From NCBI GenBank assembly GCA_016784025.1, contig JADHVL010000001.1, forward strand, positions 73,753 through 137,752: DNA of 64,000 bases, written 5' to 3'. The notes under the pieces were generated by a model. The model was given only the letters and a program-made list of their open reading frames with translations, was not told the origin of the DNA and did no database searches. Position 1 is the stretch's first letter; each line of letters begins with the position of its first letter. Below are positions 3,882 through 38,236 of this stretch, in pieces. The DNA is from Fidelibacterota bacterium. Lineage in GTDB: Bacteria; Fidelibacterota; UBA8477; JABMPR01. The translations under genes and the position numbers were made by a program.

Positions 3882-3896
3882 GTATATTAAGTATAC
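3882..3896. promoter_or_regulatory. Palindrome GTATA-TTAAG-TATAC, candidate operator/promoter element
   Basis: Perfect 5-bp inverted repeat with a 5-nt spacer, 126 nt upstream of the ATG at 4022. It is one of five such sites in intergenic DNA of this window. Confidence 0.5.
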
Positions 3897-4021
3897 TTAA
3901 CAAAATGTATTGCACAATATGAAAATTTGGATGCTAGAAAACATTTAAACCAGCCTTCTTCGAATACACGAAGGTTATAATATTTATTGGTAACCCAATA
4001 AGCGGTATAAGTGAGGCCTTA

Positions 4022-6943
4022 ATGAGAAGCATAAAAGCTTTCTTTCTGATCATAATCCTGATGACAAGTTGGGTATTTGCCGGCGTAACAGGTAAACTGG
4101 CAGGTGTCGTCATTAACCAGGAAACGAAAGAACCATTAATTGGTGCTTCCATTGTGGTCCCAACCACCTGGGTTGATGAATTTCAGGTGGAAATGCTCCA
4201 TCCTTTTGGGGCCGCAGCCAATGAAAAGGGCCAATATTTTATACTGAATCTTGAACCAGGCGATTATGACATGAAAGTCATGATGATGGGATACGCTACT
4301 GAGCTTAGAACCAGAGTTCGTGTAGATGCAGACCGTACAACCTGGGTGAATTTTGAGCTCAAACCTGAAGCCATTTTAGGAGAGGATGTAGTTGTTACCG
4401 CCTATCGGGCTGATGACATCCAAGTTGATCTTACCGCGACACGTCAAAATTATGCCATGTCTGAAATGGAAAACAATACAGCGATGTACGAAATTGACGA
4501 TGTAATAGCGTTACAGGCTGATGTTGTCGACGATCATTTTCGAGGGGGCCGTGAGAATGAGACCCTGTATCTGGTTGATGGCGGAACCATTGTAGACCCC
4601 ATGGAAAATGGTAAAGCCTACACACCTCTGGTAATCAGTATGGAACAGGTTCAAGTCGTCACGAGTGGATTTAGTGCTGAATATGGGAACACGCAGTCAG
4701 GCGTGGTGAACATGATACCAAAACAGGGTAAAAATAAGTGGCGTACGAATGTTCAGGTTGTTTATACCGCTCCACATGATTTGTATTGGGGTGGGAGCGT
4801 TTTCGATACCTCCAGGACTCCGTGGAACCTGTTTGCAAGTGGTCCCGATTTTTGGCTCACTTCAGTTACAGACGGTGAGAATCCCTATTTTCAAGAAACT
4901 GGTGGTGGCAAGTACAATGCACACACCTATGACGATACACTCAAGCAAGCCGCGCTGGCATATGCGCAATTCCGAAGTTTCTCCCGTCTGCTTGGTGGGA
5001 ACTATAATGATCTCTGGCAGGACATGAGAGTGAACTTTAGCAGCGGGGGTCCCATCACTGAGAATACCCGTATCTTTATGGCCCTGGGTAATCATTCAAA
5101 ACCCAATATCATGCCCTCCGAAGAACCGGATGTTCGACGCGATATCATGGTAAATCTTACCCACGATATAAGCAGTACCAACAAGCTGGTGATGGGTTAT
5201 GACTACAACTATAACTTTAGTAATACCATTGGTGTGAATAATTCGAGAGATCTCTTCTTCAGGGAAGAGGGCAACTCAAAAAGGATTCGGACCACCCAGA
5301 ATGTTCGTCTTCGCTGGGAACATGTTTTTTCTAAAGCTGCTTTTATGGATATAAATTTTCGGATCCTCTATAACCGTTCCTGGCAGCTCGCACCTATTCG
5401 TGATCCCTCTCAGCAAATACCACAATACGGTCCTGCCAATGCGATACCGTTCTTTTCACGATTAGGTCTCAATGGGATGTATAGTGATGAATTCGCCAAT
5501 TCCAGAAACCGCAATCAAAACATCACCTATTCTCTACTTGGACAGGTCTCCAATCAGATTACCAATTACAATCTGCTCAAGTTTGGCTTGCAGGTCTTTG
5601 CCTATGATATCAACAATTATAATGAAAATAATGTAACAAGTCAGACCAACTATGAGCTGAATGAATATAAAGTGAGACCGGTTGAAGGCGCACTTTACCT
5701 GGAAGACAAACTCGAGTTTGAGGGTATGATAGCCAATCTTGGTTTGAGATGGGATTTTTACGATTTTAATACGAGTTACTTCACGGATCGCTTCTCACCG
5801 ACACGCAATCCGGATTTTAATCCTGACCTACCCTACTTTGAGCAAACAGATTATTTGGACATAGAGAATGCCCTGCGTGAAGACACCAAGCCATTCTCTA
5901 GACTTCAACCCCGCCTGGGAATTGCTTTTCCCATTAATCTGGCGTCAGTAGTGCATATGAATTATGGTCAATTCGTCCAACGACCTGGCTTGAAGTATGT
6001 CTATGAACGTCGTATTGAAGAAACGGGTCGTGTAAACAGTCTGGGCAACCCTCGACTGCGTCCAGAGAAAACAAACTCTTATGACATTGGTGTCGTCCAG
6101 GGCTTTCCCTTTGGTATCAGGGTTGACCTGAGTCTCTATTACAAAGATGTAAAGGATCTCATCCAGGCTGTCACCTATATCGATGAAGAGACCAACGTCT
6201 ACCGCACCTATGACAATCGGGACTATGCCAATATCAAGGGCTTTCATGCCAGCATTGAAAAACGGAGTAAGCTTTTTACGGCAATTGTCCGCTATCGATA
6301 CCAAAAAGCAACGGGGAAATCAGCGACTCCTTTTGATGCACCTGTAACCTATCTGGAGCTGGACAGACTCTCCGGGCGAATAGATGTCGAATTACCCGAT
6401 CCAGAAGATATTCCTATGGACTATGAGCGTACACACCGTCTGGTTACCAGCTTTAATGTAAAAAGTCCCAAAAAATTCGGTCCTAAAATGTTTGGATCGC
6501 GACCGCTGGGTAGTTGGAACTTGAATATTCGTAACGACTGGATGACTGGCCGTCCCTACACTTTTGATCCTGAAATTGCGGGACAACGCTATAATCGCAG
6601 AACGCCAGATGAAAACAAGCTCCAGGCTCGTCTCCAGAAGACATTCCATATGAGAGCATACGAATACACGGTCTATTTCGAGGGTATGAATTTGCTGAAT
6701 GATAAGGTATTCAACTATTCAATATTCAGGGGGGATAGCGAGCGCAAATCTGATCTCCATGATTATGGCGTTGAAGGTGAATGGGAAAATATCTATGACG
6801 AAAATGGGGAATTGGTGGAGCAAATCTGGCATGATGGAGCCAGGGTTTATACCCTGAACGTGGATTACCCATATATCGAAGAAGCAGTCATATATAAGAA
6901 CAGCCCAGCCTATTACAGGATGGGTGTGAATATAAAGTTTTAG
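4022..6943 (+). CDS. TonB-dependent receptor-type outer-membrane barrel with N-terminal carboxypeptidase-regulatory-like domain (cassette 1, gene 1)
   Basis: 973 aa with a signal peptide. N-terminal GKLAGVVINQETKEPLIGASIVV...YFILNLEPGDYDMKVMMMGY (CarbopepD_reg-like). Plug-like LYLVDGG..VQVVTSGFSAEYGNTQSGVVNMIPKQG. Long barrel ending in aromatic ...YRMGVNIKF. RBS GTGAGG upstream. Confidence 0.85.
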   Translation: MRSIKAFFLIIILMTSWVFAGVTGKLAGVVINQETKEPLIGASIVVPTTWVDEFQVEMLHPFGAAANEKGQYFILNLEPGDYDMKVMMMGYATELRTRVRVDADRTTWVNFELKPEAILGEDVVVTAYRADDIQVDLTATRQNYAMSEMENNTAMYEIDDVIALQADVVDDHFRGGRENETLYLVDGGTIVDPMENGKAYTPLVISMEQVQVVTSGFSAEYGNTQSGVVNMIPKQGKNKWRTNVQVVYTAPHDLYWGGSVFDTSRTPWNLFASGPDFWLTSVTDGENPYFQETGGGKYNAHTYDDTLKQAALAYAQFRSFSRLLGGNYNDLWQDMRVNFSSGGPITENTRIFMALGNHSKPNIMPSEEPDVRRDIMVNLTHDISSTNKLVMGYDYNYNFSNTIGVNNSRDLFFREEGNSKRIRTTQNVRLRWEHVFSKAAFMDINFRILYNRSWQLAPIRDPSQQIPQYGPANAIPFFSRLGLNGMYSDEFANSRNRNQNITYSLLGQVSNQITNYNLLKFGLQVFAYDINNYNENNVTSQTNYELNEYKVRPVEGALYLEDKLEFEGMIANLGLRWDFYDFNTSYFTDRFSPTRNPDFNPDLPYFEQTDYLDIENALREDTKPFSRLQPRLGIAFPINLASVVHMNYGQFVQRPGLKYVYERRIEETGRVNSLGNPRLRPEKTNSYDIGVVQGFPFGIRVDLSLYYKDVKDLIQAVTYIDEETNVYRTYDNRDYANIKGFHASIEKRSKLFTAIVRYRYQKATGKSATPFDAPVTYLELDRLSGRIDVELPDPEDIPMDYERTHRLVTSFNVKSPKKFGPKMFGSRPLGSWNLNIRNDWMTGRPYTFDPEIAGQRYNRRTPDENKLQARLQKTFHMRAYEYTVYFEGMNLLNDKVFNYSIFRGDSERKSDLHDYGVEGEWENIYDENGELVEQIWHDGARVYTLNVDYPYIEEAVIYKNSPAYYRMGVNIKF

Positions 6944-6975
6944 CGCACCTTGTTGCTGAAAGGGCAAATAGAATT

Positions 6976-9339
6976 ATGGTGAAAATAGGAAGAACTGGGT
7001 TTGCGCTGATAATGATTCTTTCACTCATGGCAACATCGCTGTGGGCTCAAAGACGTGAATACAAGGTCATGCGCAGAGGCATGATGCGTGAATCACTCTA
7101 CAATAACGGAATTATCAGTACACCGTTTCATAATGATGGGATGGATATCGTGGATCACCCTCAGATGGAATGGCCCAAATATTCAAGTACGGTAGAGGGG
7201 ACCATTATTTATGATGGCCAACACAATACCATGGGTGGTGGTATACATATCTCAGGAAACATACATGACAAACCCTTTCAGGATGAACGTCACTTTTCCT
7301 TTTGTGGTCTTGTGGGAGGGGGCGGACCCGAGGAGACCATCGGTATCTGGAATTTCCCGGTAGAATTTCGTCGTATTGAAAATTATCCCATCCTGGCTGA
7401 TGGAAGTCTAAATCTGGAATATGATCCTGAAGAGGCAGAGGAAATCATTTACGCTAAATGGGCAACCAGTATGGGTGTCACAATCACACGGGTATCCAGA
7501 GCCTGGAGCTATCCTGACTATGACGATATGATTATCCATGAATACGAATTGGTGTTTGACGGAAATACCGATAGTGACCCTACTACTATTGAAGAAGTTG
7601 TCATCGAGCGCGGCTCTGGGGGAATAACCACACTCGATACCGTTCAAGTCTGGGAGGACTTTGTCGTATTCTTCGGTCAGAGCTGGGGTCCAAACATGTT
7701 TGCCTACCAGCGTCAACCTGAATATGGTGGGATATGGAATTGGAAACCGGGACTCATCAGCGATGGAAATCACCAGAGTTTTGACCATAAATTATGGACA
7801 CTTTTCAATTTTGATACTCAAACCAACGGTTCCTTAAACCGTAAGGCAAAACCTGAACCCAATCTGGATCTTTTTGAGGAATGGGCCAGAACCGGTAAAA
7901 ATGGTGGTGGGCTGCTAGCACCACAGGCAGTAGGTATGAGCATGCTGTACTACGACACAAAGCATCTCTCAGCAATCAATATTGCAACCGACACATCAGT
8001 CTATGACGGGGAAACCTCCTATGCCTGGAAAGCCAATGATCACGAACTGTTTCAGTTTCCAGATGAGCCGGATTCCAATGTATTCCGCATCAAGCAACCC
8101 TGGGAAATATACAAGAACAAAGGCTGGTTTGGCCTGAACAAGCTTTACGAAGGAGCTTCCAGTGAGACCGAGAAGCGAGGTAATCCTTTCGGTACAAGTT
8201 ATCTGGATGATCCACGAGTTGGTGAGACCTGGGTCGGTAGGGGAGCCTTCTCGTCTCAAAAGGCTAATGCCATGCCTCTCCAGGCCTTCGCATTTGGACC
8301 CTATACCATTCATCGCGGAGATACCGTTGAATTCAGTATGGCTCAAGTTGTGGGTTACGGAACCGATTCTCGTGAGATTATGGGAGGGGGATCCCATGAT
8401 CAAAGCGTCTTGTTTATGAAACCTGTTCACATTGATTCCTTTGATGTCATTCTTAAAAATGATGAGGGGAATGATGTACTCATGACCAGTCATTATATCT
8501 CTGATTACGGATACCCCGACTATGTCAATTCAGATGTGATCACAATTCAGGATGTATCACGCAAAGCCTATGAGATGTACACTGGAGATTCACTTGCACG
8601 AGTTGAAAGCTGGGGAACCGATGAATTCCGATATTGGCCTGAGAATAATGCAAGAGATGGAAAATATGTTGTTCAGGACATTCCCTGGCCTGCACCCGTG
8701 ATAGACGTTGCCAATACAGCCCTCCAGGGCGTGAGAGTTGCCTGGAATCGGGAGGTGGAGGATTTTCCGTATACAGTGAATGACCTTGGCGGATTCAATC
8801 TATATCGAGCCTATAATCCGCTTGGTCCCTGGAAATTGCTTGTCTCCAAGATAGTCGGAGATGTGAACTCAGATAACTCCTACGAATTCTTTGATGAAGA
8901 CACGACCTTGAAAATGGGTGAAGCTGTGTTTTACGCAGCGACAAGTTTTGATACTGAGGGCTTTGAATCTGGAAAATCCAATATCTTTCCTGATCCAGAT
9001 AATGCAGATGCACCGGCCTTCAGAAGAAGTCAGGGAGCAGTCGAGGAACTGGGTGATATTGTTGTGACACCCAATCCCTTCTTTGAAAAGTCTGGCTTCT
9101 CCGGAACTGGTGAAGATAATATGATTGGATTCTATGGATTGCCTGCAGTATGCACGATCAGGATCTATTCCTATTCTGGACAGCTGGTGGAAACACTGGA
9201 ACACGATTCTGATGCCTACAGTCATCAGTACTTTCAAGTAAGTCGAAACGATCAAATCATTGCAGCCGGTCTCTATTTCTTTTCAGTTTCAACCCCCGAC
9301 GGACAGACCACCGGCGGTAAATTTTTTATTATTAAGTGA
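6976..9339 (+). CDS. Orphan secreted protein with variant T9SS-like C-terminal domain (cassette 1, gene 2)
   Basis: 787 aa with a signal peptide (MILSLMATSLWAQ). I recognise no catalytic or binding domain. The C-terminus VVTPNPFFEKSGF...CTIRIYSYSGQLVETLEH...GLYFFSVSTPDGQTTGGKFFIIK resembles a CTD but deviates from the NYPNPFNP consensus. A paralogue lies at 33259..35538. Confidence 0.6.
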   Translation: MVKIGRTGFALIMILSLMATSLWAQRREYKVMRRGMMRESLYNNGIISTPFHNDGMDIVDHPQMEWPKYSSTVEGTIIYDGQHNTMGGGIHISGNIHDKPFQDERHFSFCGLVGGGGPEETIGIWNFPVEFRRIENYPILADGSLNLEYDPEEAEEIIYAKWATSMGVTITRVSRAWSYPDYDDMIIHEYELVFDGNTDSDPTTIEEVVIERGSGGITTLDTVQVWEDFVVFFGQSWGPNMFAYQRQPEYGGIWNWKPGLISDGNHQSFDHKLWTLFNFDTQTNGSLNRKAKPEPNLDLFEEWARTGKNGGGLLAPQAVGMSMLYYDTKHLSAINIATDTSVYDGETSYAWKANDHELFQFPDEPDSNVFRIKQPWEIYKNKGWFGLNKLYEGASSETEKRGNPFGTSYLDDPRVGETWVGRGAFSSQKANAMPLQAFAFGPYTIHRGDTVEFSMAQVVGYGTDSREIMGGGSHDQSVLFMKPVHIDSFDVILKNDEGNDVLMTSHYISDYGYPDYVNSDVITIQDVSRKAYEMYTGDSLARVESWGTDEFRYWPENNARDGKYVVQDIPWPAPVIDVANTALQGVRVAWNREVEDFPYTVNDLGGFNLYRAYNPLGPWKLLVSKIVGDVNSDNSYEFFDEDTTLKMGEAVFYAATSFDTEGFESGKSNIFPDPDNADAPAFRRSQGAVEELGDIVVTPNPFFEKSGFSGTGEDNMIGFYGLPAVCTIRIYSYSGQLVETLEHDSDAYSHQYFQVSRNDQIIAAGLYFFSVSTPDGQTTGGKFFIIK

Positions 9340-13909: not shown

Positions 13910-14002
13910 CAACCTCAGGATACTGCTCTGAATTGATCTGAATCGAGCTGGATTCATTGACATATCGTCATGAAGTTTGACTTGCTTTTTTATGAAATAT
14001 AG

Positions 14003-14017
14003 GTATACTAAATATAC
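14003..14017. promoter_or_regulatory. Palindrome GTATA-CTAAA-TATAC, candidate operator/promoter element
   Basis: Perfect inverted repeat 114 nt upstream of the ATG at 14131. The 16-nt core GTATACTAAATATACA is identical to the site at 17713. Confidence 0.5.
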
Positions 14018-17660: not shown

Positions 17661-17712
17661 ACATTCCTGACATTACCTACGCAGTTATACCTTGCGATGA
17701 TTGAAAAATATA

Positions 17713-17727
17713 GTATACTAAATATAC
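17713..17727. promoter_or_regulatory. Palindrome GTATA-CTAAA-TATAC, candidate operator/promoter element
   Basis: Perfect inverted repeat 99 nt upstream of the ATG at 17826, immediately downstream of the hairpin-repeat array. Confidence 0.5.
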
Positions 17728-25551: not shown

Positions 25552-25566
25552 GTATAATTAGTATAC
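25552..25566. promoter_or_regulatory. Palindrome GTATA-ATTAG-TATAC, candidate operator/promoter element
   Basis: Perfect inverted repeat 72 nt upstream of the ATG at 25638. Confidence 0.5.
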
Positions 25567-30342: not shown

Positions 30343-33249
30343 ATGCCACAATCCAGAATAATGACTAAGCTTATTAAAGGTGCCATACTATTGGCTTTGA
30401 TCATTCAAACCACAGTATTGGCTGATCAAACGGGTAAAATTTCTGGAATTGTTCGGGATATTGAAACTGAGGAAGGGCTGATTGGTGCCAACGTTGTCAT
30501 TAATGAGCGTTGGGTGGGGGGAGAGATCGAACCCATAAGTAGACCCAGGGGAGCCGCCACAGATTTGGATGGCCGCTTCTATATCATTAATCTTGAACCA
30601 GGTTTTTACAATGTGGAAGTCCATATGATGGGCTATCAGTCAAAAATGATTGAAAGGGTGCGCATAGACGTCGATAAAACTACTGAATTATTCTTTGATG
30701 TCAGTTCCGAAGCACTCCTTATGGATGATATTTTAGTTACTTCCTTCCGCTCAGATATGATCCAGCGGGATCTTACTGCGACCAAGCAGAATTACATCAT
30801 GTCAGAACTTGAAGAAGTCGCTGGAATAAGTGATGTTCAGGACATAATCGACTTAAACGCCGATATCGTTGACGATAATGTTCGAGGGGGTCGTGAAGCG
30901 GAAACTCAATACCTGATTGGTGGAGCCAGTATTGTAAACCCTCTATCGAATAAGGCTTCCTTTAAGCCCATGACATCAGGTTTGCAGGCTGTTGAAGTAT
31001 TTACCTCAGGTTTTTCAGCTGAATATGGAAACGCCCAATCCGGTGTCATTAATATGGTTCCCAAAACAGGCGGTAAACGCTGGAGTACCAAGGTTAATTA
31101 TTCCGGAACATTACCTCATTATAATCACTGGGGCGGATCGGCCTGGAGTGAGGATACCAGACCTCACGATCTGTTTGGCGGAGACGCTGAGAATTGGCTT
31201 CAGGTCAGTCAACAGGATTCCAGTCAATCCCTGATAAACTGGAATAGTAACGGCTCCTATGCCAATTACGTGGATCTTGAAAATGCTACCCATGAGGACA
31301 GTCTCAAAGTGGCCGAGTTTGCTCGGGCTCAATACCTGGCTTTTGCCAGACAGATTGGGTTGGCCTATGATGAAGTGACTGATTACCGGATTGATCTTTC
31401 TACTGGAGGACCTGTATCTGATAAGACAAGAATCTTTCTGGCCGTCAGACAACAGGTAGATGGTACCAAAGTTTTGACAGCCTTTCCAAATAAATCAAGA
31501 CAACTGATGACAAACTTTTCATGGGCTCCCTCTGTGGAAAACAAGTTCATCATCTCCATGAATTATTATACCTCCGAGAAACTCAACTGGAGCGTGGGGA
31601 GTAGGTATGTCAAAATCTTCAATCCTGACTATGGTCCCCATCGTGATCGAAACCAGGCTGCGGATTATGGACTTCGCTGGGAACATATATTTAGTCAAAA
31701 ATCCTATATGGAGATGAACCTGAGGAGTTTCACTACGGATTATGCTCACAGATATCCTATCCGTGATCCTGAATGGATGGGTTCAAATTGGGGTAGCAAT
31801 TTTAATACACCGATCTGGTTGCCTGGCGATCTGAATAATAAGGTTCTTGAGAATAACTATTCTGCCGAGAAGACCAAGACAGTGAGGTTTTATGGTTCCT
31901 GGAATAAGCAACTCAATATCAATAATTTGATGAAAGCTGGTTGGCAGCTGTTTACGTATGATCTGCACACAGAGCGGTCGGCTTCAGCCAGTTCACCCAA
32001 TGCCCAAATTCTGACATACCACGAGAAACCCTATGAGGGAGCATTCTATGTTCAGGACAAGATGGAGTTTGAGGGCCTGGTTGCGAATATTGGACTACGA
32101 TTTGACTTCTATAATTATAATTACAAGTATTTCACAAATCTTTTTCATCCCACAGCCAATCCAAATTATGATTCCAGTTTACCACCTGGCTTGCGAGGCC
32201 CTTTTAACGATCCTGAATTAGCAGAAACAAGCCAAACCGAATTGGTCTACCATCTGCAACCCAGGATGGGGTTTTCTTATCCGGTCAATGAGCGATCGGT
32301 GATTCATGTGAATTATGGAAGTTTTACGCAGCGTCCCAATTTTGACAAAATCTATCGACGCTACTATGATATTACAGGCAACGAGGTCGATGAACTGGGT
32401 AATGCCCGTCTGAAGCCAGAGCGAACCAACGCCTATGATTTTGGATTGGTCCAAGGACTTCCCTTTGGTTTCAGGATTGATGTCTCAACCTATTATAAGG
32501 ATGTGAAAAACCTGGTTCAGACAGTCTTTTACGAAGACTCAACAGGGTCAGACTATAAAGGATTTGCCAACCTGGATTACGCCAATATCAAAGGATTCAG
32601 TATGAACCTTGTGAAAAAAACGGGTAATCTAAAAGTGAGCGTGCGCTACAATTTTCAGAAAGCCGTAGGTAAAAATCCGACACCTTTTGATGCAACACTC
32701 TCTTATAAGGAAGGATCTGACGGGCGTTATGATTTTGATCATGAGAATAATCGAGCACCTGAACCTGAAGATGTGATCATGAACTATAATCGGCGAAACA
32801 GAATTATCACTAACATTCAATATAAAACACCTACAGAATTTGGACCACAGATCTTTGGAGGACTACCTTTCTCAGGTATCTCAATGAATGCTAAACTCAC
32901 ATATCAGGAAGGAAGACCATATACGTACTACGGACCCGATGAATCAATCGGTCCTCAGTTTAATAAAGTCGGTCCAGATGAGCATAATCTCCAATTTATG
33001 TTTGCTAAAAATATGCGCTTTGGTAAACAGAAGCTGGCCCTGAACCTTACCATCTTTAATGTTCTGAATGAGAAGGTGTTCGCCTATTCCTTGTTTAAAG
33101 ATTTTGAAGCGGTTGAAGAATATGAAGCAGGCGACATTGATGCTGTGATGGTTGAAAGTGATTATTCACCCATGGATTTCCCCCAGCACATCCGCTACTA
33201 TCAAAATGCACCTCGCTACTATCGCCTTGGCGTTCAGTGGACTTTTTAA
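30343..33249 (+). CDS. TonB-dependent receptor-type outer-membrane barrel with carboxypeptidase-regulatory-like domain (cassette 2, gene 1)
   Basis: 968 aa, AAGGAG RBS. Collinear with 4022..6943 (GKISGIVRDIETEEGLIGANVVI, FYIINLEPGFYNVEVHMMGY, VEVFTSGFSAEYGNAQSGVINMVPKTG). C-terminal ...YRLGVQWTF. Confidence 0.85.
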   Translation: MPQSRIMTKLIKGAILLALIIQTTVLADQTGKISGIVRDIETEEGLIGANVVINERWVGGEIEPISRPRGAATDLDGRFYIINLEPGFYNVEVHMMGYQSKMIERVRIDVDKTTELFFDVSSEALLMDDILVTSFRSDMIQRDLTATKQNYIMSELEEVAGISDVQDIIDLNADIVDDNVRGGREAETQYLIGGASIVNPLSNKASFKPMTSGLQAVEVFTSGFSAEYGNAQSGVINMVPKTGGKRWSTKVNYSGTLPHYNHWGGSAWSEDTRPHDLFGGDAENWLQVSQQDSSQSLINWNSNGSYANYVDLENATHEDSLKVAEFARAQYLAFARQIGLAYDEVTDYRIDLSTGGPVSDKTRIFLAVRQQVDGTKVLTAFPNKSRQLMTNFSWAPSVENKFIISMNYYTSEKLNWSVGSRYVKIFNPDYGPHRDRNQAADYGLRWEHIFSQKSYMEMNLRSFTTDYAHRYPIRDPEWMGSNWGSNFNTPIWLPGDLNNKVLENNYSAEKTKTVRFYGSWNKQLNINNLMKAGWQLFTYDLHTERSASASSPNAQILTYHEKPYEGAFYVQDKMEFEGLVANIGLRFDFYNYNYKYFTNLFHPTANPNYDSSLPPGLRGPFNDPELAETSQTELVYHLQPRMGFSYPVNERSVIHVNYGSFTQRPNFDKIYRRYYDITGNEVDELGNARLKPERTNAYDFGLVQGLPFGFRIDVSTYYKDVKNLVQTVFYEDSTGSDYKGFANLDYANIKGFSMNLVKKTGNLKVSVRYNFQKAVGKNPTPFDATLSYKEGSDGRYDFDHENNRAPEPEDVIMNYNRRNRIITNIQYKTPTEFGPQIFGGLPFSGISMNAKLTYQEGRPYTYYGPDESIGPQFNKVGPDEHNLQFMFAKNMRFGKQKLALNLTIFNVLNEKVFAYSLFKDFEAVEEYEAGDIDAVMVESDYSPMDFPQHIRYYQNAPRYYRLGVQWTF

Positions 33250-33258
33250 GGGACTCCT

Positions 33259-35538
33259 ATGAAGAATTATTTATATAACCAGAATTCTACTGAGAGTGCT
33301 ATTTCAAAATGCTTAAAGTTGGTATTGCTTATCACATTCCTGATGAGTTTTACATCAACATTATGGGCACAACGTGAACGTCTGGTTCATGATCGTGGCA
33401 CTCTCCATGAGACGTTTTATAACACGGGGGTTTTCGTGGCTCCATTCAAAAATAATGGAATTGAATCTACCAATACTCCCATGACTGAATGGCCAGCCTG
33501 GTCCAGGACTGTGATTGACAATATTGAATATTATGGTCAACACAACGGTCTGGGAGGGGGTATCCATATTGGTGTGAACCATCCAGGAAAGTTAGGTGTA
33601 GATCAAAAACACTTTTCCTTTGCCGGGATGGTTGGTTCAGGTGGTCCAGAGATGGAATATGAAGTTTGGTGCTGGCCTCTTGAATTCTGGAAAGAAACCA
33701 ACTATCCACTGCAGGATGATGGTAGTCTCAATCCGGATTTTGATCCCAATGAGGCCGAACAACTCATTCATACCAGATTTGCTACCAGTGTTGGTATGAC
33801 CGTGACGCGGGTCACTCGCCAATACAGCTATCCCAGGCTGGATGATATCATCTTCCACGAATACGAATTAGAATTTACTGGAAATACCGATTATGATGAA
33901 ACCACTATTGAGCAGGATTCAGTAGATACCTATGTGGATGCCCTGTTTGCATTTCATATGGCCATACCACCTAACATGATGAGCTTTCAGAGAACATTTG
34001 GGTCATGGTACTGGAAACCGGGCATTTTCAGAGGTGATGTATACAACAGCTTTGATACTGATTATGCGATGTTTTATTGTCAAAGCATCAGCACCCAGCA
34101 AGACCACTCCAAACCTTATCATCCTGAACCAGATGAAGATCTGTTCTGGGAGTTTGCGTCTACCGGTTTAAATGGTGGTGGATTGCTGGCACCCCAGGCT
34201 GCTGGTCATACTGCCCTGCATTGGGATAGGGAACATCTAACAGTTCTAGATACGACAGACACTACTTTTCATCTGACCACCATGGAGTATGCACAACATG
34301 CGTCCGACTTTGAATGGGATGAAGGCTTAACCATTAAGCAACCCTGGGGAATTATCCAGAATGCTGGTTGGTTTGTTTCTACTGGGCTCATCAATAAACC
34401 ACACTACAAGACGCATAACCGGGCCCAGGGTAAATTTCCCGAACTTGATGCGCCTGATCCAAATGAGCATCCAATGTTTTGGGTGGGAAGACCCAAGTTT
34501 ACACCTAGAAGTGCAGAAGCACCGGCCTCGTCTTTTATTTGTGGTCCTTATACCATCAACCGCGGTGATAAACTGAATTTTAGTTTTGCACAGGTTGTTG
34601 GATACGGCTCAGAACCAGGAAAAAGGGTATTTGGAGGTGGGCAGAAATCAGATCTATGGGGGACAGCCCCTGATATCAATGCTGAACTCACAGTAGGGGA
34701 TAGTACTTTCAGATATCTGGATACTTTTGGATATCCCGATTATGTAAATGCAGAAACCGGTGTTATCTCTGTACAGGATGTAGCTCGGGAAGCGTGGAAA
34801 GCCTATACTGGCTGGGATATTGAGCATGATTCCCTCTGGGCTGAAGATTCTGTGGTTTGTTGGCCAGATTGGACCGAGCCCCACGGCTTGTATGATGTCT
34901 ATATTCCAGTTCCAGCTCCAGGCTTAAAAGTGAGCAATGATGAAGAGGCCAATGTACACGTGACATGGTCTAGAGCTGTGGAAGATTTCACGCATGCTTC
35001 TTCCGCCCTGGACTCATTCTATGTGTTTAGAAGTTTCAATCGGCTGGGACCATGGAAACGTCTGGTCACTATTGCAGCCGGGGATGTCAATTCAGAGGAT
35101 TACTATGAATACATCGATGACAATCTGGACTTCGCCTTTACAGATGTAGCCTTCTATGCAGTGACCTCAGTTGATGTCAACGGAAATCAGAGTGGCAAAA
35201 CAAATATGACTCAACATCGAAGGGATATTGGACCTGAGGGTGATCTTGAAAATATTTTTATTGTCCCCAATCCCTTTATCCTGGAGAGTGGTTTTCAAAA
35301 TGCGGCACTTGCGAATGCAGTCAGCATTTTCGGACTTCCCGAGAAATGCTCTATCCGTGTCTATAGTTTTGCTGGCCAAAGGGTTCAGAGTATTGAGCAT
35401 GACAATTCTGAGAGTGGATCGCTCACATTTAATCTGGTAAATGAGAACAACATGCTCCTGGCTCCAGGTGTTTATTTTGTTGCCATTCAAACTCCAGAGG
35501 GACAACAGGCCATGACAAAATTTGTGATTATTCGCTAA
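33259..35538 (+). CDS. Orphan secreted protein with variant T9SS-like C-terminal domain (cassette 2, gene 2)
   Basis: 759 aa. Collinear with 6976..9339 (YYGQHNGLGGGIHIG, HFSFAGMVGSGGPE, DDIIFHEYELEFTGNTD, GGGLLAPQAAG, FAQVVGYGS). C-terminus IVPNPFILESGF...CSIRVYSFAGQRVQSIEH...GVYFVAIQTPEGQQAMTKFVIIR. Confidence 0.6.
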   Translation: MKNYLYNQNSTESAISKCLKLVLLITFLMSFTSTLWAQRERLVHDRGTLHETFYNTGVFVAPFKNNGIESTNTPMTEWPAWSRTVIDNIEYYGQHNGLGGGIHIGVNHPGKLGVDQKHFSFAGMVGSGGPEMEYEVWCWPLEFWKETNYPLQDDGSLNPDFDPNEAEQLIHTRFATSVGMTVTRVTRQYSYPRLDDIIFHEYELEFTGNTDYDETTIEQDSVDTYVDALFAFHMAIPPNMMSFQRTFGSWYWKPGIFRGDVYNSFDTDYAMFYCQSISTQQDHSKPYHPEPDEDLFWEFASTGLNGGGLLAPQAAGHTALHWDREHLTVLDTTDTTFHLTTMEYAQHASDFEWDEGLTIKQPWGIIQNAGWFVSTGLINKPHYKTHNRAQGKFPELDAPDPNEHPMFWVGRPKFTPRSAEAPASSFICGPYTINRGDKLNFSFAQVVGYGSEPGKRVFGGGQKSDLWGTAPDINAELTVGDSTFRYLDTFGYPDYVNAETGVISVQDVAREAWKAYTGWDIEHDSLWAEDSVVCWPDWTEPHGLYDVYIPVPAPGLKVSNDEEANVHVTWSRAVEDFTHASSALDSFYVFRSFNRLGPWKRLVTIAAGDVNSEDYYEYIDDNLDFAFTDVAFYAVTSVDVNGNQSGKTNMTQHRRDIGPEGDLENIFIVPNPFILESGFQNAALANAVSIFGLPEKCSIRVYSFAGQRVQSIEHDNSESGSLTFNLVNENNMLLAPGVYFVAIQTPEGQQAMTKFVIIR

Positions 35539-35558
35539 ACGCGACCCAGGGAGAAAGA

Positions 35559-36533
35559 ATGATGAAATTGAATCAAATCAAATCAATAGTCATGCCCTTG
35601 TGTCTGTTGTTAGCGTTTTCAACAATTGATGCTCAGACAACAAAAGAGGGGACAACCGCATTTCAATTCTTGAAGGTAAAACCAGATGCCCGGGCAAATG
35701 GAATGGGAGAGGCCTTCACGGCAGTGGCTGATAATGCTGATGGTGTCTATTACAACCCTGCTGGGCTAACCGACGCAGGCAAATATGAATTGTCTATGTC
35801 TATGTACAACTATTTTGCCGATGTCCGGAACATGGGAGGTGTGGCTCTAGTGGGAACTCGGTTAGGCACCTTTGCCATACAGTATCAATACAATGATATT
35901 GGTCAAATACTACATACAACCAATGTAACCAGCCTTGCGGATTACCAGGCACTCTCAAGTTCTCAGGATTATTTTAGTCCCAATCATCTTATGCTGGGTC
36001 TTACTTATGCCAGAGCCGTGACTGATAAATTCAGCTTTGGTATCACTACCAAGTTTGTACAGGAAGACTTGATCTATTCTAAAGAGGATCAAATCCTTTT
36101 TGATGGTGGTGTGCTCTATCGTTCAGGTTGGAGAACATTACGTACCAGTGCGGTCGTTCGTCATTTTGGAGATGACATCGTATTTGAAGAGAAAGGCTTT
36201 TCAGCACCTCAGGTCCTCATTCTCGGTTTTGGTGTTGAATGCTTTGGTCCTGAAGGTGGCTTGATCGGGACAAATTCGTTTCAGAGGCTTACACTTGCTG
36301 CAGATCTTCTGGCACCGCGTGATTATGATCAACAGTATAACATCGGTGCAGAGTGGGCTTTGAAAGAAAGGCTGTTCCTGCGCGGAGGATATAAAATTAA
36401 TTATATCACTGAGGGACTCAGCCTGGGAGCTGGAGTATCCCTGGGAAATTTTAAATTCGATTATGCATATAATGATTATGATGACTTCCTGCAATATGTT
36501 CAGCGTTTTAGTCTGAGCTATGTGATGAGATAG
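35559..36533 (+). CDS. PorV/PorQ-family outer-membrane beta-barrel (cassette 2, gene 3)
   Basis: 324 aa. GTTAFQFLKVKPDARANGMGEAFTAVADNADGVYYNPAGL is the hallmark N-terminus. Paralogue of 9352..10419. Confidence 0.7.
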   Translation: MMKLNQIKSIVMPLCLLLAFSTIDAQTTKEGTTAFQFLKVKPDARANGMGEAFTAVADNADGVYYNPAGLTDAGKYELSMSMYNYFADVRNMGGVALVGTRLGTFAIQYQYNDIGQILHTTNVTSLADYQALSSSQDYFSPNHLMLGLTYARAVTDKFSFGITTKFVQEDLIYSKEDQILFDGGVLYRSGWRTLRTSAVVRHFGDDIVFEEKGFSAPQVLILGFGVECFGPEGGLIGTNSFQRLTLAADLLAPRDYDQQYNIGAEWALKERLFLRGGYKINYITEGLSLGAGVSLGNFKFDYAYNDYDDFLQYVQRFSLSYVMR

Positions 36534-36545
36534 ACTGGATATAAG

Positions 36546-38063
36546 ATGAATAAAATTAAATCAATCGTCGTGATATTAACGCTAGTAAGCATTGCTTCTT
36601 TCCCTCTGGTGCTTATGGGGCAAGGGAATGGAGAAATGATTCTCTTGCATGGGATGGCAAACCTTGAAACCGAAACACCCTGGACTCTGGCAAGAGCCGG
36701 TGCAGGAGTTGCTGGGGATGGATCTCTGAATGATATCTTTCGCAATCCAGCAGGATTGGTCGGATTGAAGGGCTTTCAATTTCAATTTAATGGTCATCTC
36801 TCGCGACGAAATCAATTTGAAAATATGGTCATGATGGAAGATCGAGTTGACCCAATTATTCTGCGATTTATCGACCGGACCTATCAGCCCCTGCACAGCA
36901 ACAATGGTGTATGGGTAAATGATCTTTTCGCGGGAATGACTGTCGATGATATTACCGTAGATGATACAGGACTTGATTTCTGGCATCGCGGAGCTGGAGA
37001 CTGGCAGGAACAACTTGTCTCAGCTGGTGTCTCAAATGTGAGTCTGGGATTACCCGTTGAAGTTTTTGGTGGACGAACCATTGCATTTGGCCTCGCTTTT
37101 CGAAACCAGAATATCTACGATTACGATCGGAATGAAGCTTATCTCAATCCAGTAATAGGGGATTGGTCTGATCAAGGTCTTGAAACTGACGGTGATACTT
37201 TGGATTTGCATCAGTTCGAATACATCCGTAAAAGAGATGGTGATCTGACCATGCTTCAGGCGACAGTTGCTATTGAGTTGCTTGATTGGATGAACTTCGG
37301 GATTGGGCTAAAATCAGTTTCAGGAAACACTGCTGATAACATATCCTGGGCGCATTACGGTGATTACAGATGGCGTACTAATGGTGGATTTTCCTTTACA
37401 TATGACGATACCTCAGCGGCTTTAGCAAATTTTACTGAGAGTGAATGGTCCTCAAACATGATTGATCTGTCAGTTCAGTTTCATACACCAGATTTTTCAG
37501 CAGGATTTCAATTCGACCTTCCAACCAAAATGATACGGGACTATTCTGATGAGGATTGGTTCATCCAACCTGATGATTCCATGTTTGTATTGGATAGTGC
37601 TGATTTGACTATGGAAGTATCAATGCCCTTGAAAACCAGCTTTGGAATTGCCGTGAAACCTAAAGATGCGCTGGAAGTGTTTTTCGACCTCGTCTGGAAT
37701 CCTTTATCAGAGTCAGCGATCGATATGGGCGATACCAGTCTGGCACTGGATGGGTACCAGCCCTGGATTGATACCTTCACCATGAAGTTGGGGATTGTAT
37801 ATAAAATTGATGAGTATGCTAGAGTTGCAGCTGGATACCAGACAGGAACTCGTGAATTTCATGGTTGGCGTTCACCCTTCATTGATAGGGGACCAGAGCA
37901 AGATATGTTTACTGCAGGAATCTCGGTAGATGCGCTTATGGGGACAATCGATATTGGATACTCCTGGCAAACACTGAAGTATATTGATTACTTTGCTACC
38001 AGTATGCACTATGTGACCCAAAAGCACAATCGGATCATGCTGGGGTATACTCTTAAGCTCTAA
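36546..38063 (+). CDS. FadL/PorV-like outer-membrane beta-barrel (cassette 2, gene 4)
   Basis: 505 aa with a signal peptide. ARAGAGVAGDGSLNDIFRNPAGL motif. C-terminal ...IMLGYTLKL. Same position and size as 10439..11962. Confidence 0.55.
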   Translation: MNKIKSIVVILTLVSIASFPLVLMGQGNGEMILLHGMANLETETPWTLARAGAGVAGDGSLNDIFRNPAGLVGLKGFQFQFNGHLSRRNQFENMVMMEDRVDPIILRFIDRTYQPLHSNNGVWVNDLFAGMTVDDITVDDTGLDFWHRGAGDWQEQLVSAGVSNVSLGLPVEVFGGRTIAFGLAFRNQNIYDYDRNEAYLNPVIGDWSDQGLETDGDTLDLHQFEYIRKRDGDLTMLQATVAIELLDWMNFGIGLKSVSGNTADNISWAHYGDYRWRTNGGFSFTYDDTSAALANFTESEWSSNMIDLSVQFHTPDFSAGFQFDLPTKMIRDYSDEDWFIQPDDSMFVLDSADLTMEVSMPLKTSFGIAVKPKDALEVFFDLVWNPLSESAIDMGDTSLALDGYQPWIDTFTMKLGIVYKIDEYARVAAGYQTGTREFHGWRSPFIDRGPEQDMFTAGISVDALMGTIDIGYSWQTLKYIDYFATSMHYVTQKHNRIMLGYTLKL

Positions 38064-38073
38064 CAAGACCCTC

Positions 38074-38180
38074 GGACATTGAGTTCACTTGTCAGGTCAC
38101 AGTTCGCAGAACGACGACTGATCGAAATGTCCAGTCCTTCGGCTGGTTAAACTCCGACCTCGACAGGCTCAGTATCCAGA
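38074..38180. repeat. Hairpin-family members downstream of cassette 2
   Basis: 38074-38131: GGACATT GAG[44-nt loop]TCGA AATGTCC has the same 7-bp stem as 17588-17612 but an expanded loop. 38152-38180: CTCCGACCTCGACAGGCTCAGTATCCAGA carries the reverse core. Confidence 0.55.
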
Positions 38181-38220
38181 ATCAATTCACCCCGAATTCA
38201 CTTGAAAACCCTTTGTTATA

Positions 38221-38236
38221 GTATATATTAGTATAC
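38221..38236. promoter_or_regulatory. Palindrome GTATA-TATTAG-TATAC (6-nt spacer), candidate operator/promoter element
   Basis: Inverted repeat directly upstream of the sulfatase gene, and downstream of the hairpin repeats as at 17.7 kb. Confidence 0.45.

What the first reader, a model, noticed from the sequence alone, without database searches (positions are those of the whole stretch)
3882..38236. Shared GTATA-N5/6-TATAC palindrome upstream of five transcription units
The inverted repeat GTATA/TATAC occurs in intergenic DNA at five sites:
- 3882-3896 (spacer TTAAG)
- 14003-14017 (CTAAA)
- 17713-17727 (CTAAA)
- 25552-25566 (ATTAG)
- 38221-38236 (TATTAG)

Each site lies about 15-126 nt upstream of the first gene of a block: cassette 1, a BNR-PKD gene, the BNR-dockerin gene, the 1500-aa protein, and the sulfatase/fucosidase block. 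A degenerate version (GAGTAATAAATATAC, about 23457-23471) precedes the sulfatase at 23522. Sites 2 and 3 share the 16-nt core GTATACTAAATATACA.

The window encodes no regulator. A dimeric regulator encoded elsewhere, or a lineage-specific promoter element, could coordinate the locus through this motif. The intergenic DNA is AT-rich, so chance matches are possible. The fixed half-sites and spacing argue against chance.
Basis: partly seen in the sequence, partly recalled or inferred. Interest (0 to 1): 0.65.

Follow-up and report, generated by a model that had tools for sequence, protein, structure and literature searches.

The report
Conserved promoter palindrome of fucoidan genes
A 15-base palindrome (GTATA-N5-TATAC) sits on the likely promoters of at least six gene blocks in a large sulfated-fucan (fucoidan-type) degradation locus of uncultured marine Marinimicrobia and is conserved across at least five related species, so it is most likely the docking site of a still unidentified regulator protein that switches the locus.

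Summary
GTATA-N5-TATAC occurs exactly 5 times in the window (0.01 expected; 0.002 expected within the AT-rich intergenic DNA alone). All five copies are intergenic and lie upstream of + strand gene blocks.

The window is a fucoidan-type polysaccharide utilisation locus of a Marinimicrobia bacterium. The motif recurs upstream of comparable gene blocks in four further species. Sites 1-4 are identical in a sister species, although the surrounding intergenic DNA is only 43-53% identical at sites 2 and 3. Site 4 is identical in a species whose downstream protein is 64% identical. A sixth site lies 14 kb upstream of the window.

Two distant species carry GTATG-N5-CATAC, a symmetric double change that points to dyad recognition. 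At six sites a TTGnnn-like hexamer (TGGACT at one) lies 16 nt upstream of the left half, which reads TATAnT. The palindrome would therefore span about -13 to +3.

It is absent from coding DNA, from housekeeping flanks and from alginate loci of the same phylum.

Best reading: the operator of a dimeric, trans-encoded regulator, probably a repressor. No regulator gene was found. The "degenerate" site at 23457 is rejected. This is a new member of a known kind and of moderate interest.

The parts
3882..3896 (.). Site 1, GTATATTAAGTATAC (part of the 14-bp perfect palindrome TTAAGTATACTTAA); 125 nt upstream of the TonB-dependent receptor gene of cassette 1 (4022)
   Evidence: Exact match. Identical in the sister species at L005 9861 and L015 294. 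Matrix score 28.7 bits.
3861..3888 (+). Putative sigma-70-type promoter of cassette 1: TTGTTA-N16-TATATT, with the -10 hexamer equal to positions 2-7 of site 1
   Evidence: Listed by the consensus scan. CTTG lies exactly 18 nt before the palindrome, as at sites 2 and 3. Inferred; no transcription start data.
14003..14017 (.). Site 2, GTATACTAAATATAC; 113 nt upstream of the BNR-PKD gene (14131)
   Evidence: Exact match. Identical in the sister species, inside an island that is 92% identical while the rest of the gap is 53% identical.
13982..14009 (+). Putative promoter TTGCTT-N16-TATACT overlapping site 2
   Evidence: The conserved island starts at GACTTGCTTTTTTAT and ends about 10 nt after the palindrome. 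Same spacing as at sites 1 and 3. Inferred.
17713..17727 (.). Site 3, GTATACTAAATATAC; 98 nt upstream of the BNR-dockerin gene (17826)
   Evidence: Exact match. Identical in L015 at 14362, in an island that is 86% identical while the rest of the gap is 43% identical. A strong terminator at 17428-17459 precedes it.
17692..17719 (+). Putative promoter TTGCGA-N16-TATACT overlapping site 3
   Evidence: Consensus scan and conserved island. The same ATAGTATACTAAATATACATAATA(A/G)AGAT block with CTTG-N18 occurs at L020 4054 upstream of a CBM4_9 gene.
25552..25566 (.). Site 4, GTATAATTAGTATAC; 71 nt upstream of the 1500-aa beta-helix/T9SS protein gene (25638). The left half contains a consensus TATAAT, and there is no conserved -35.
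   Evidence: Exact match. Identical 15-mer in L015 (22018) and L018 (3535), where the downstream protein is only 64% identical. In the three-species alignment the longest invariant run is GTATAATTAGTATACTA; overall three-way identity is 32%.
38221..38245 (.). Site 5, composite GTATATATTAGTATACCAATTATAC: an N6 dyad (38221-38236) overlapping an N5 dyad (38231-38245); 29 nt upstream of the probable ATG (38275) of the sulfatase that heads the sulfatase/fucosidase block
   Evidence: Matrix score 25.2 bits for the N5 copy. No orthologous region was available in other species.
38202..38229 (+). Putative promoter TTGAAA-N16-TATATT overlapping site 5
   Evidence: Consensus scan, 10 of 12 matches. Inferred.

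Best explanation
The palindrome is the operator of a two-fold symmetric (dimeric) DNA-binding regulator that is encoded outside the sequenced parts of the locus. The regulator would co-ordinately control at least six transcription units of a sulfated-fucan utilisation locus more than 80 kb long in a Marinimicrobia lineage.

Shown:
- The 15-bp dyad has half-site GTAT(A/G), weakly extended to GTATAnT-n-AnTATAC, with half-site centres 10 bp apart.
- It is confined to the intergenic gaps that head gene blocks.
- It is under strong purifying selection across five species.
- At six of the sites a TTGnnn-like hexamer (TGGACT at one) lies 16 nt upstream of the left half, which reads TATAnT.

Inferred:
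- These are sigma-70-type promoters. The operator would then cover about -13 to +3, that is, the -10 hexamer and the transcription start.
- A bound dimer would therefore exclude RNA polymerase (repression).
- A fucoidan-derived signal would release the regulator.

The direction of control and the identity of the protein are not shown.
For: - Over-representation: 5 exact copies against 0.01 expected, and 0.002 expected within intergenic DNA alone.
- Intergenic bias: across six fucoidan-type loci the relaxed pattern GTATR-N5-YATAY occurs 16 times in 9.4 kb of intergenic DNA and 4 times in about 155 kb of coding DNA. It occurs 0 times in two alginate loci and a housekeeping flank.
- Clean separation: a matrix scan of about 330 kb scores every site at 19-29 bits and nothing else above 12 bits apart from one offset overlap.
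- Footprints: sites 1-4 are identical, spacers included, in a sister species with 84-93% protein identity. The rest of the gap is 53% identical at site 2 and 43% at site 3.
- Site 4 is identical in a species with 64% identity in the downstream protein, and the 17-nt run containing it is the longest invariant block of the gap.
- New sites of the same type lie upstream of TonB-receptor, CBM4_9, LamG/PKD and SASA-esterase genes in L018, L020, L022, L025 and L027.
- Dyad covariation: L022 and L025 carry GTATG-N5-CATAC. The left half and the reverse complement of the right half differ only at the inner position. Read as direct repeats, the hexamers differ at 3 of 6 positions.
- The outer G1 and C15 are near-invariant, while inner positions 6 and 10 vary.
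- Promoter geometry: TTGTTA, TTGCTT, TTGCGA, TTGCAA, TGGACT and TTGAAA lie 16 nt before TATAnT at sites W1, W2, W3, L020-CBM, L027 and W5.
- In-phylum precedent: in alginate loci, TTGCnT-N17-TACnTT is followed by a FadR-type palindrome upstream of gntR.
- No regulator domain appears in any protein of at least 100 aa in the window, or in the precomputed Pfam annotation of genes in the related loci.
Against: - There are no transcription start, expression or binding data, so the promoter assignment rests on consensus matches. On their own these are at chance frequency in this AT-rich DNA (48 found against 44 expected).
- Site 4 and its orthologues, the L018/L020 receptor sites and the L022/L025 sites lack a TTG at the -35 position. 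The architecture is therefore not uniform, and an activator role is possible there.
- No candidate regulator gene was found, so 'trans-encoded' is an argument from absence. It covers about 82 kb of the locus in one species and the fetched 13-34 kb parts of four related loci.
- Sites 2 and 3 and the L020 CBM site share about 29 nt and may descend from one ancestral promoter. The number of independent site types is about four or five, not thirteen.
- One promoter-bearing gap of the locus (30141-30342, upstream of cassette 2) has no site.
Confidence: 0.6

Rival explanations
1. Same protein-binding dyad, but the regulator is an activator or dual regulator rather than a repressor. It could, for example, recruit RNA polymerase at promoters that lack a -35 element.
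For: Site 4 in three species, the receptor sites in L018/L020 and the sites in L022/L025 have no TTG at the -35 position. At site 4 the 24 nt upstream of the palindrome are not conserved, whereas about 12 nt downstream are. The Crp-like global sugar regulator proposed for Bacteroides is an activator that binds an AT-rich palindrome (PMC3878776).
Against: Where a -35-like element exists, the dyad overlaps the -10 hexamer and the expected start, which is the classical repressor position. By inspection of the sequences printed, no -10-like hexamer occurs at a constant distance downstream of the dyad, as a class II activator site centred at -41.5 would require. The 16-nt spacer argues against a MerR-type mechanism, which uses over-long 19-20 nt spacers (established knowledge).
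Confidence: 0.12
2. The real unit is the self-complementary hexamer GTATAC within TnGTATACnA. This is a GntR/FadR-type operator like that of DipR or UxuR/ExuR. The second, imperfect copy 9 nt away would be an auxiliary box for a second dimer.
For: Ten of eleven GTATA-type sites contain exactly one perfect GTATAC, often inside a perfect 8-14 bp palindrome: TAGTATACTA at W3, W4, L018 and L020, and TTAAGTATACTTAA at W1. DipR, a GntR/FadR repressor, binds GTATAC upstream of six transcription units of a catabolic cluster, with footprints from +1 to -35 (PMC11472048). Marinimicrobia alginate loci encode GntR/FCD regulators with a FadR-type operator.
Against: The perfect hexamer lies on the left at some sites and on the right at others, while the promoter-like elements stay fixed relative to the 15-mer. 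L022 and L025 have no palindromic hexamer (GTATGT and GCATAC) yet keep a perfect 5+5 dyad across the 15-mer. No GntR gene lies in or next to any of the five fucoidan-type loci, unlike the alginate loci.
Confidence: 0.12
3. An intrinsic, lineage-specific core-promoter element is read by RNA polymerase or a sigma factor, with no separate regulator. It could be a -10 hexamer plus a start-site or discriminator motif.
For: The left half is always a good -10 hexamer (TATAnT; TATAAT at site 4). All sites are promoter-proximal and no regulator was found.
Against: A polymerase element has no reason to be two-fold symmetric or to change symmetrically (GTATG...CATAC). The motif is absent from the non-locus intergenic regions of the same organisms: the L012 flank with at least four gene starts, the L029 flank and the tRNA-Ser/tadA region. 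It is absent from the gap heading cassette 2. It is absent from the alginate-locus promoters, which show TTGCnT-N17-TACnTT without it. The receptors have no STN signalling domain and no ECF sigma/anti-sigma pair is present, so a dedicated ECF promoter is unlikely.
Confidence: 0.08
4. A small RNA hairpin in the 5' leader affects attenuation, stability or translation.
For: The dyad can fold as a 5-bp stem with a 5-nt loop. Site 1 extends to an 8-bp stem of -4.9 kcal/mol, z = -3.4.
Against: At sites 2, 3 and 4 the hairpin is only -1.7 to -1.9 kcal/mol and no better than shuffles (z = -0.7 to -1.2). Loop sequences are conserved as strictly as stems. The conserved island extends upstream into the -35-like region rather than downstream. 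No Rfam family matches apart from the tRNA.
Confidence: 0.02
5. A chance feature of AT-rich DNA, or a remnant of a repeated or mobile element.
For: The gaps are AT-rich (30-43% GC), and REP-like repeats do populate several of them.
Against: Expected 0.002 against 5 observed in intergenic-only shuffles. Only about 15-29 nt are shared between sites and the flanks are unrelated. Sites sit at orthologous positions in species with 64-93% protein identity, whereas the REP-like repeats are not conserved.
Confidence: 0.01

Closest known systems
Classical palindromic operators of dimeric helix-turn-helix repressors that overlap the -10/+1 region of catabolic promoters (the general class: TetR, LacI, MarR, Xre and GntR type regulons)
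   Same: Two-fold symmetry, half-site centres one helical turn apart, location over the presumed -10 hexamer and start site, and one copy per transcription unit of a substrate-specific catabolic gene cluster.
   Different: The protein is unknown and not encoded in the locus. The sequence GTATA-N5-TATAC was not found as a described operator in the literature searched. No binding or expression data exist.
DipR (GntR/FadR family) operator 5'-GTATAC-3' in the dipicolinate cluster of Alcaligenes faecalis (PMC11472048); UxuR/ExuR boxes TGGTATACCA (from memory)
   Same: GTATAC core, often as TAGTATAC. In DipR's case there are six sites, one per transcription unit of a catabolic cluster, footprints cover +1 to -35, and the protein is a repressor.
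   Different: Here the conserved unit is a 15-bp dyad. The symmetric GTATG/CATAC variants destroy the hexamer palindrome but keep the long dyad. No GntR gene accompanies the locus.
GntR/FCD operator of Marinimicrobia alginate loci, found here: TAAGATGTCTGACATCTTA upstream of gntR in L021 and L026
   Same: Same phylum, the same kind of TonB-receptor cassette locus, and a palindrome close to a TTGC-type -35 / TAnnnT -10 promoter.
   Different: A different sequence (FadR consensus TnGT-N3-ACnA). The regulator is encoded inside the locus. The operator lies just downstream of the -10 rather than on it.
Putative global Crp-family sugar regulon of Bacteroides (BT4338), motif wwwTATGTTnTAnAACATAwww (PMC3878776)
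   Same: An AT-rich palindrome upstream of several sugar-utilisation operons in an FCB-group bacterium, with the regulator encoded elsewhere. TATG/CATA half-site cores resemble the L022/L025 variants.
   Different: The cores are separated by 8 nt rather than 5 (16-bp even palindrome against 15-bp odd). It was proposed as an activator, and it has not been reported in Marinimicrobia.
Regulation of Bacteroidota polysaccharide utilisation loci by hybrid two-component systems, SusR-like proteins or ECF sigma/anti-sigma pairs (established knowledge)
   Same: The purpose is the same: substrate-dependent control of TonB-receptor-centred glycan loci.
   Different: Those regulators are encoded in or next to the locus and mostly use direct repeats or sigma-specific promoters. 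None of these genes, and no STN domain on the receptors, is present here.

Membership tests
Transcription-factor operator shared by a regulon (generic) | Statistically over-represented motif confined to non-coding DNA upstream of genes | tested here: met
   5 found against 0.01 expected, and 0.002 expected within intergenic DNA. 16 intergenic against 4 coding hits of the relaxed pattern across six loci. The matrix scan separates sites cleanly.
Transcription-factor operator shared by a regulon (generic) | Conservation at orthologous promoters against a diverged background (phylogenetic footprint) | tested here: met
   The 15-mers are 100% conserved, while the rest of the gap is 43-53% identical at sites 2 and 3. 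The 17-nt block at site 4 is the longest invariant run among three species.
Transcription-factor operator shared by a regulon (generic) | Dyad symmetry maintained through substitutions (symmetric changes in both half-sites) | tested here: met
   GTATG-N5-CATAC in L022 and L025. There are only two occurrences, from two related species, so support is modest.
Transcription-factor operator shared by a regulon (generic) | A cognate DNA-binding protein that binds the site | not testable with these tools
   No regulator gene was found in about 82 kb of this locus or in the related loci. Whole genomes could not be fetched.
Repressor operator overlapping a sigma-70-type core promoter | Site overlaps the -10 hexamer and/or the transcription start of a mapped promoter | tested here: inconclusive
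   TTGnnn-N16-TATAnT geometry (TGGACT-N16-TATACT at L027) at six sites, and conserved islands spanning -35 to about +10. No start sites are mapped, and other sites lack a -35.
GntR/FadR-type operator (TnGT-N2-3-ACnA) | Short palindrome with a GT...AC core as the recognised unit | tested here: inconclusive
   TAGTATACTA or AAGTATACTT is present at most GTATA-type sites. It is absent at the L022 and L025 sites, where only the 15-bp dyad is kept.
GntR/FadR-type operator (TnGT-N2-3-ACnA) | GntR-family gene in or beside the regulated cluster, usually autoregulated | tested here: not met
   No PF00392 hit in the window or in the annotation of any fucoidan-type locus, in contrast with the alginate loci L021 and L026.
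CRP/FNR-type site (5-N6-5 or 5-N4-5; Bacteroides Crp-like TATGTT-N4-AACATA) | Even-length palindrome with the family's spacing | tested here: not met
   All sites but one are 5-N5-5 (15 bp, odd). The Bacteroides motif has 8 nt between the TATG and CATA cores, against 5 here.
Fur-family box (7-1-7, TGATAAT-n-ATTATCA) | Match to the 7-1-7 consensus | tested here: not met
   The geometry is similar (GTATAnT-n-AnTATAC) but the sequence differs. A separate, better Fur-like box (TGATAAATATTATCA) lies at 25428-25442.
Bacteroidota-style locus regulators (HTCS, SusR, ECF sigma/anti-sigma with STN-domain receptor) | Regulator gene adjacent to the receptor gene; STN domain on the receptor for the ECF type | tested here: not met
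   The receptors show CarboxypepD_reg plus barrel (plus Plug on one receptor). There is no STN domain, no sigma or anti-sigma gene and no sensor kinase.
Structured RNA element | Stable, covarying secondary structure or a match to a known family | tested here: not met
   Hairpins of -1.7 to -1.9 kcal/mol, no better than shuffles, at 3 of 5 sites. No Rfam match.

The most novel reading that the evidence does not exclude
The fucoidan-type loci of this Marinimicrobia lineage are run by a dedicated regulator that is not encoded in the locus, unlike essentially all characterised Bacteroidota polysaccharide loci and unlike the alginate loci of the same phylum. This regulator would belong to a family, or have a specificity, not yet linked to glycan sensing. 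GTATA-N5-TATAC would be its signature. The motif could then be used to define a wider 'fucoidan regulon', including the regulator's own gene, in uncultured marine bacteria.
Probability: 0.25. Interest if true: 0.6.

Novelty: new member of a known kind. Interest (0 to 1): 0.45.

Why it matters
Fucoidan is one of the most recalcitrant algal polysaccharides, and its turnover affects marine carbon sequestration. Marinimicrobia are abundant and almost entirely uncultured, and nothing is known about how they regulate glycan loci.

A high-information, conserved operator gives three things:
- A computational handle. Scanning MAGs for the motif would delimit the regulon and, through autoregulation, could find the regulator gene.
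- Direct predictions of promoter positions and operon boundaries in a locus more than 80 kb long.
- A ready bait for DNA-affinity capture or DAP-seq.

It also suggests that these SusD-less receptor cassettes (TonB receptor, 760-790-aa protein, PorV-like and FadL-like proteins) are controlled differently from Bacteroidota loci. The mechanism itself, a palindromic operator at promoters, is ordinary.

Tried and rejected
- Degenerate sixth site at 23457: rejected. It has 2 mismatches (a class close to chance), lies in a window-specific REP-like insertion that is missing in three relatives, and scores below threshold in the matrix scan.
- Weaker extra sites: none. There was nothing between 12 and 19 bits in about 330 kb, including upstream of cassette 2 (30141-30342) and of the sulfatase at 49746.
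- RNA hairpin: rejected on energies and conserved loops, and there is no Rfam hit.
- Restriction-site avoidance of GTATAC: the hexamer is not depleted (18 observed against 13.6 expected).
- Bacteroidetes-type promoter (TAnnTTTG): by inspection of the printed gap sequences no conserved match lies near the sites.
- Class II activator geometry: by inspection, no -10-like hexamer lies at a constant distance downstream.
- Regulator search: Pfam/NCBIfam on all window ORFs of at least 100 aa, and on an 88-aa window ORF plus a few short or unannotated ORFs of related loci. Genes of the related loci were otherwise read from their precomputed Pfam annotation. No DNA-binding domain was found.
- The 111-aa cupin always sits just upstream of a motif-bearing gap. 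It resembles ligand-binding domains of RhaS/PuuR but has no HTH. It matches small enzyme-like cupins in the PDB and is unrelated to the KdgF-like cupin of the alginate loci. It is not a credible DNA binder.
- More relatives through the BNR-PKD protein: almost none exist beyond two species.
One step of walking was achieved through a homologue search.
- Literature: no paper links Marinimicrobia to fucoidan regulation or describes this motif.

Full report
**1. The observation**

GTATA-N5-TATAC occurs exactly five times in the 64-kb window, at 3882, 14003, 17713, 25552 and 38231. Dinucleotide-preserving shuffles of the window give 0.01. It overlaps the N5 copy at 38231-38245, so site 5 is a composite: GTATATATTAGTATACCAATTATAC.

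All copies lie in the large gaps between + strand genes. The gaps are AT-rich (30-43% GC). I therefore shuffled the 2.8 kb of intergenic DNA on its own. The expectation is 0.002 exact copies against 5 observed, with a maximum of 1 in 3000 shuffles. Copies with 1-2 mismatches are close to chance (30 against 21).

**2. Context**

Pfam scans were run on all + strand ORFs. They show:
- two TonB-dependent-receptor cassettes, each a receptor followed by a 760-790-aa protein with no Pfam domain, a PorV-like protein and a FadL-like protein;
- many proteins with type IX secretion sorting domains;
- BNR/PKD/dockerin proteins and GH141-like beta-helix proteins;
- four sulfatases and five GH29 fucosidases;
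- a fucose/rhamnose mutarotase and a sugar ABC transporter.

This is a sulfated-fucan (fucoidan-type) utilisation locus without SusD. No DNA-binding domain was found.

The closest genome hit is a Candidatus Neomarinimicrobiota MAG from Saanich Inlet (L005; 93% identity for the receptor). Near-identical copies of the window occur in many metagenome assemblies. The locus continues at least 18 kb upstream of the window. It ends at tRNA-Ser/tadA.

**3. Conservation in the sister species**

The sister species is represented by L005 and L014-L016. Its proteins are 84-93% identical to those of the window. Sites 1-4 are present at the orthologous gaps and are identical, spacers included.

| Site | Conserved island | Island identity | Rest of gap |
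|---|---|---|---|
| 2 | GACTTGCTTTTTTAT.AAA.ATAG-GTATACTAAATATAC-A.AAGATTGAA | 92% | 53% |
| 3 | about -25 to +10 around the palindrome | 86% | 43% |

At site 3 the window also carries REP-like insertions that the sister species lacks.

The gap that holds the degenerate site (23277-23521) does not exist in the sister species (33 nt there). It is also absent from L018 and L020 (33-37 nt). That site is rejected.

**4. More distant species**

A homologue search with the receptor and contig look-ups gave syntenic fucoidan-type loci from four further species. L018/L019 and L020 have a sulfatase orthologue 85-86% identical to the window's. L022-L024 and L025 have one 68-69% identical. The motif recurs in all four.

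| Locus and position | Sequence | Downstream gene | Note |
|---|---|---|---|
| L018 3535 | GTATAATTAGTATAC | orthologue of the 1500-aa gene (64% identical) | identical to window site 4 |
| L018 9910 | GTATACTAAATATAT | receptor | |
| L020 9877 | GTATACTAAATATAT | receptor | |
| L020 4054 | GTATACTAAATATAC | CBM4_9 gene | CTTG again exactly 18 nt upstream |
| L022 17388 | GTATATTAGGTATAT | PKD/LamG/dockerin gene | |
| L022 7381 | GTATGTTAGGCATAC | receptor | symmetric variant |
| L025 4154 | GTATGTTTAGCATAC | LamG genes | symmetric variant |

In the three-species alignment of site 4, the longest invariant run is GTATAATTAGTATACTA (17 nt), followed by TACCAT and the ribosome-binding region. Three-way identity overall is 32%.

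Walking 10 kb further upstream in the window's own species revealed a sixth site, GTATACTAAATATAT. It lies in the only sizeable gap there, upstream of a SASA-type esterase gene (L027 4247, about 14 kb before the window start).

The downstream third of the locus has no site in any of three species (window 43-61 kb, L029, L030). It would then be transcribed from the promoter at site 5 or its equivalents.

**5. Specificity**

The relaxed pattern GTATR-N5-YATAY occurs as follows:
- 16 times in 9.4 kb of intergenic DNA of the six fucoidan-type loci;
- 4 times in about 155 kb of their coding DNA;
- 0 times in two Marinimicrobia alginate loci (L021, L026) and in the 12-kb housekeeping flank of the window species (L012).

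A symmetrised weight matrix was scanned over about 330 kb. It scores every site at 19-29 bits. Nothing else exceeds 12 bits apart from one offset overlap. The element is therefore a discrete, high-information signal tied to this kind of locus. It is not a general property of promoters or of AT-rich DNA in these organisms.

**6. Anatomy**

- The outer positions G1 and C15 are near-invariant (C15 is T in four sites). The TATA cores are invariant except for the symmetric A5G/T11C change. Inner positions 6 and 10 vary.
- Positions 7 (T) and 9 (A) are mostly complementary, giving GTATAnT-n-AnTATAC.
- GTATAC is self-complementary, so direct and inverted readings are confounded at most sites.
- The L022 and L025 variants separate the two readings. 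Left GTATGT against the reverse complement of right (GTATGC) differ only at the inner base. Read as direct repeats they differ at three of six positions. This favours a 15-bp dyad with half-site centres 10 bp apart, that is, a two-fold symmetric dimer on one face of the helix.
- A caveat: ten of eleven GTATA-type sites contain exactly one perfect GTATAC, often within TAGTATACTA. This resembles GntR/FadR boxes such as DipR's GTATAC (PMC11472048). I keep that as a rival structural model.

**7. Relation to promoters**

The table lists the -35-like hexamer that lies 16 nt before the TATAnT formed by positions 2-7 of the palindrome (at W5, the TATATT at 38224-38229).

| Site | -35-like hexamer |
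|---|---|
| W1 | TTGTTA |
| W2 | TTGCTT |
| W3 | TTGCGA |
| L020-CBM | TTGCAA |
| L027 | TGGACT |
| W5 | TTGAAA |

At W1, W2, W3 and L020-CBM the tetranucleotide CTTG lies exactly 18 nt before G1.

The conserved islands at sites 2 and 3 span just this -35 to about +10 interval.

An in-phylum control supports the promoter type. In the alginate loci, TTGCnT-N17-TACnTT precedes a FadR-type palindrome (TAAGATGTCTGACATCTTA) upstream of the locus-encoded gntR gene.

On this reading the dyad covers about -13 to +3, the classical position of a repressor.

The inference is not uniform, for three reasons:
- Site 4 has a perfect TATAAT but no conserved -35.
- The L018/L020 receptor sites and the L022/L025 sites also lack a TTG at -35.
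- Consensus promoter matches alone are at chance frequency here.

No transcription start data were available.

**8. Alternatives**

- RNA hairpin: unlikely. Energies are -1.7 to -1.9 kcal/mol at three of five sites and no better than shuffles. The loops are conserved, and there is no Rfam match.
- Mobile element or chance: excluded by the orthologous conservation and the unrelated flanks.
- Dedicated ECF-sigma promoter: unlikely. There is no sigma/anti-sigma pair and no STN domain on the receptors, and a palindrome would not be needed.
- Pure polymerase element: this does not explain the symmetry or the absence from other promoters of the same organisms.
- Activator role: cannot be excluded, particularly for the sites without a -35.

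**9. The regulator**

No regulator gene was found in the window or in the fetched parts of the related loci (window ORFs scanned directly; other loci read mainly from their precomputed Pfam annotation). The regions covered were:
- about 82 kb of the locus in the window species (window plus 18 kb upstream), with about 10 kb of flank beyond the window's end fetched from near-identical assemblies;
- the fetched 13-34 kb parts of the four related loci.

A 111-aa cupin gene always lies just upstream of a motif-bearing gap. It has no DNA-binding domain and looks like a small enzyme-type cupin. The regulator is therefore probably encoded elsewhere. Its family cannot be assigned. The spacing rules out CRP/FNR-type and the Bacteroides Crp-like motif (PMC3878776). 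The sequence is not a Fur box. The FadR-type reading is only partly compatible.

**10. Verdict**

- six sites in this organism's locus;
- identical sites at the four orthologous gaps that could be checked in the sister species, and at site 4 also in L018;
- same-type sites in four further species, including a symmetric variant in two.

The interpretation as a shared cis-regulatory site for a dimeric regulator encoded elsewhere is supported by comparative evidence. The repressor mechanism is the best-supported inference, but it is unproven. In kind this is an ordinary bacterial operator. Its interest lies in the organism (abundant, uncultured Marinimicrobia), the substrate (fucoidan) and the apparent lack of a locus-encoded regulator.

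Noticed in passing
window 17474-17674, 23338-23410, 38070-38172, 49566-49632: REP-like intergenic repeats of about 80 nt, built from GTCGAAATGTC..CCGACTTCGAsAGsCTCAG..GGACATTGAGC. There are two tandem units at 17521-17674. They fill gaps that are short or absent in sister species (23277-23521 is a 33-nt junction in L015, L018 and L020), so they are recent insertions next to promoters.
   Followed up: partly
window 25428-25442: Fur-box-like perfect palindrome TGATAAATATTATCA, about 110 nt upstream of site 4. It is conserved in the sister species (L015) but not in L018. It may be a second regulatory input to the 1500-aa protein gene.
   Followed up: partly
L027 4247-4261 (about 14 kb upstream of window position 1, same organism): Sixth operator copy, GTATACTAAATATAT, with TGGACT-N16-TATACT. 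It lies upstream of a SASA-type esterase gene. The locus continues upstream with a GH97 glycosidase, an esterase, further sulfatases and a LysE-type transporter.
   Followed up: yes
window 30141-30342: The gap before the second receptor cassette has a strong terminator (GGGGGCAGTCT...AGACTGCCTCTTTTTT) but no operator copy. In L018 and L020 the corresponding receptor does have one (GTATACTAAATATAT). Cassette 2 may escape this control in the window species.
   Followed up: partly
window 61238-61520; L012 11568-11914: tRNA-Ser(cga) is followed by two direct repeats of about 40 nt (TTGCGAGTCACG... at 61355 and 61441). Many assemblies break at this tRNA. In GCA_016784505.1 an integrase-like ORF lies beyond tadA. 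L029 (another species) also ends its locus at tadA, so the locus position itself is old.
   Followed up: partly
L021 4437-4457; L026 about 2578-2596: Marinimicrobia alginate loci carry a FadR-type palindrome, TAAGA(A/T)GTCTGACATCTTA. It lies just downstream of TTGCnT-N17-TACnTT and upstream of their own gntR (FCD) gene. It is probably the autoregulated operator of that locus.
   Followed up: partly
L029 16459-16648: In the L018 species, GTATAC-N8-GTATAC (TTACGTATACGTATTTGTGTATACGCA) lies after the ABC binding-protein gene at the end of the locus. It has the same hexamer but a different spacing from the operator. It is unexplained.
   Followed up: no
window 4022-13909 and 30343-38063: SusD-less receptor cassettes: a TonB-dependent receptor (CarboxypepD_reg N-terminus), a 760-790-aa protein with no Pfam domain, a PorV-like protein and a FadL/BamG-like barrel. 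Relatives insert a leucine-rich-repeat protein of 468-493 aa after the receptor. The same cassette type serves alginate loci.
   Followed up: partly
window 25052-25387 and orthologues (L018 3071-3406, L020 9363-9710, L022 6148-6483): A 111-aa stand-alone cupin always follows the orthologous sulfatase and precedes a motif-bearing gap. It shows weak similarity to RhaS/PuuR ligand domains, has no HTH, and is unrelated to the KdgF-like cupin of the alginate loci.
   Followed up: partly
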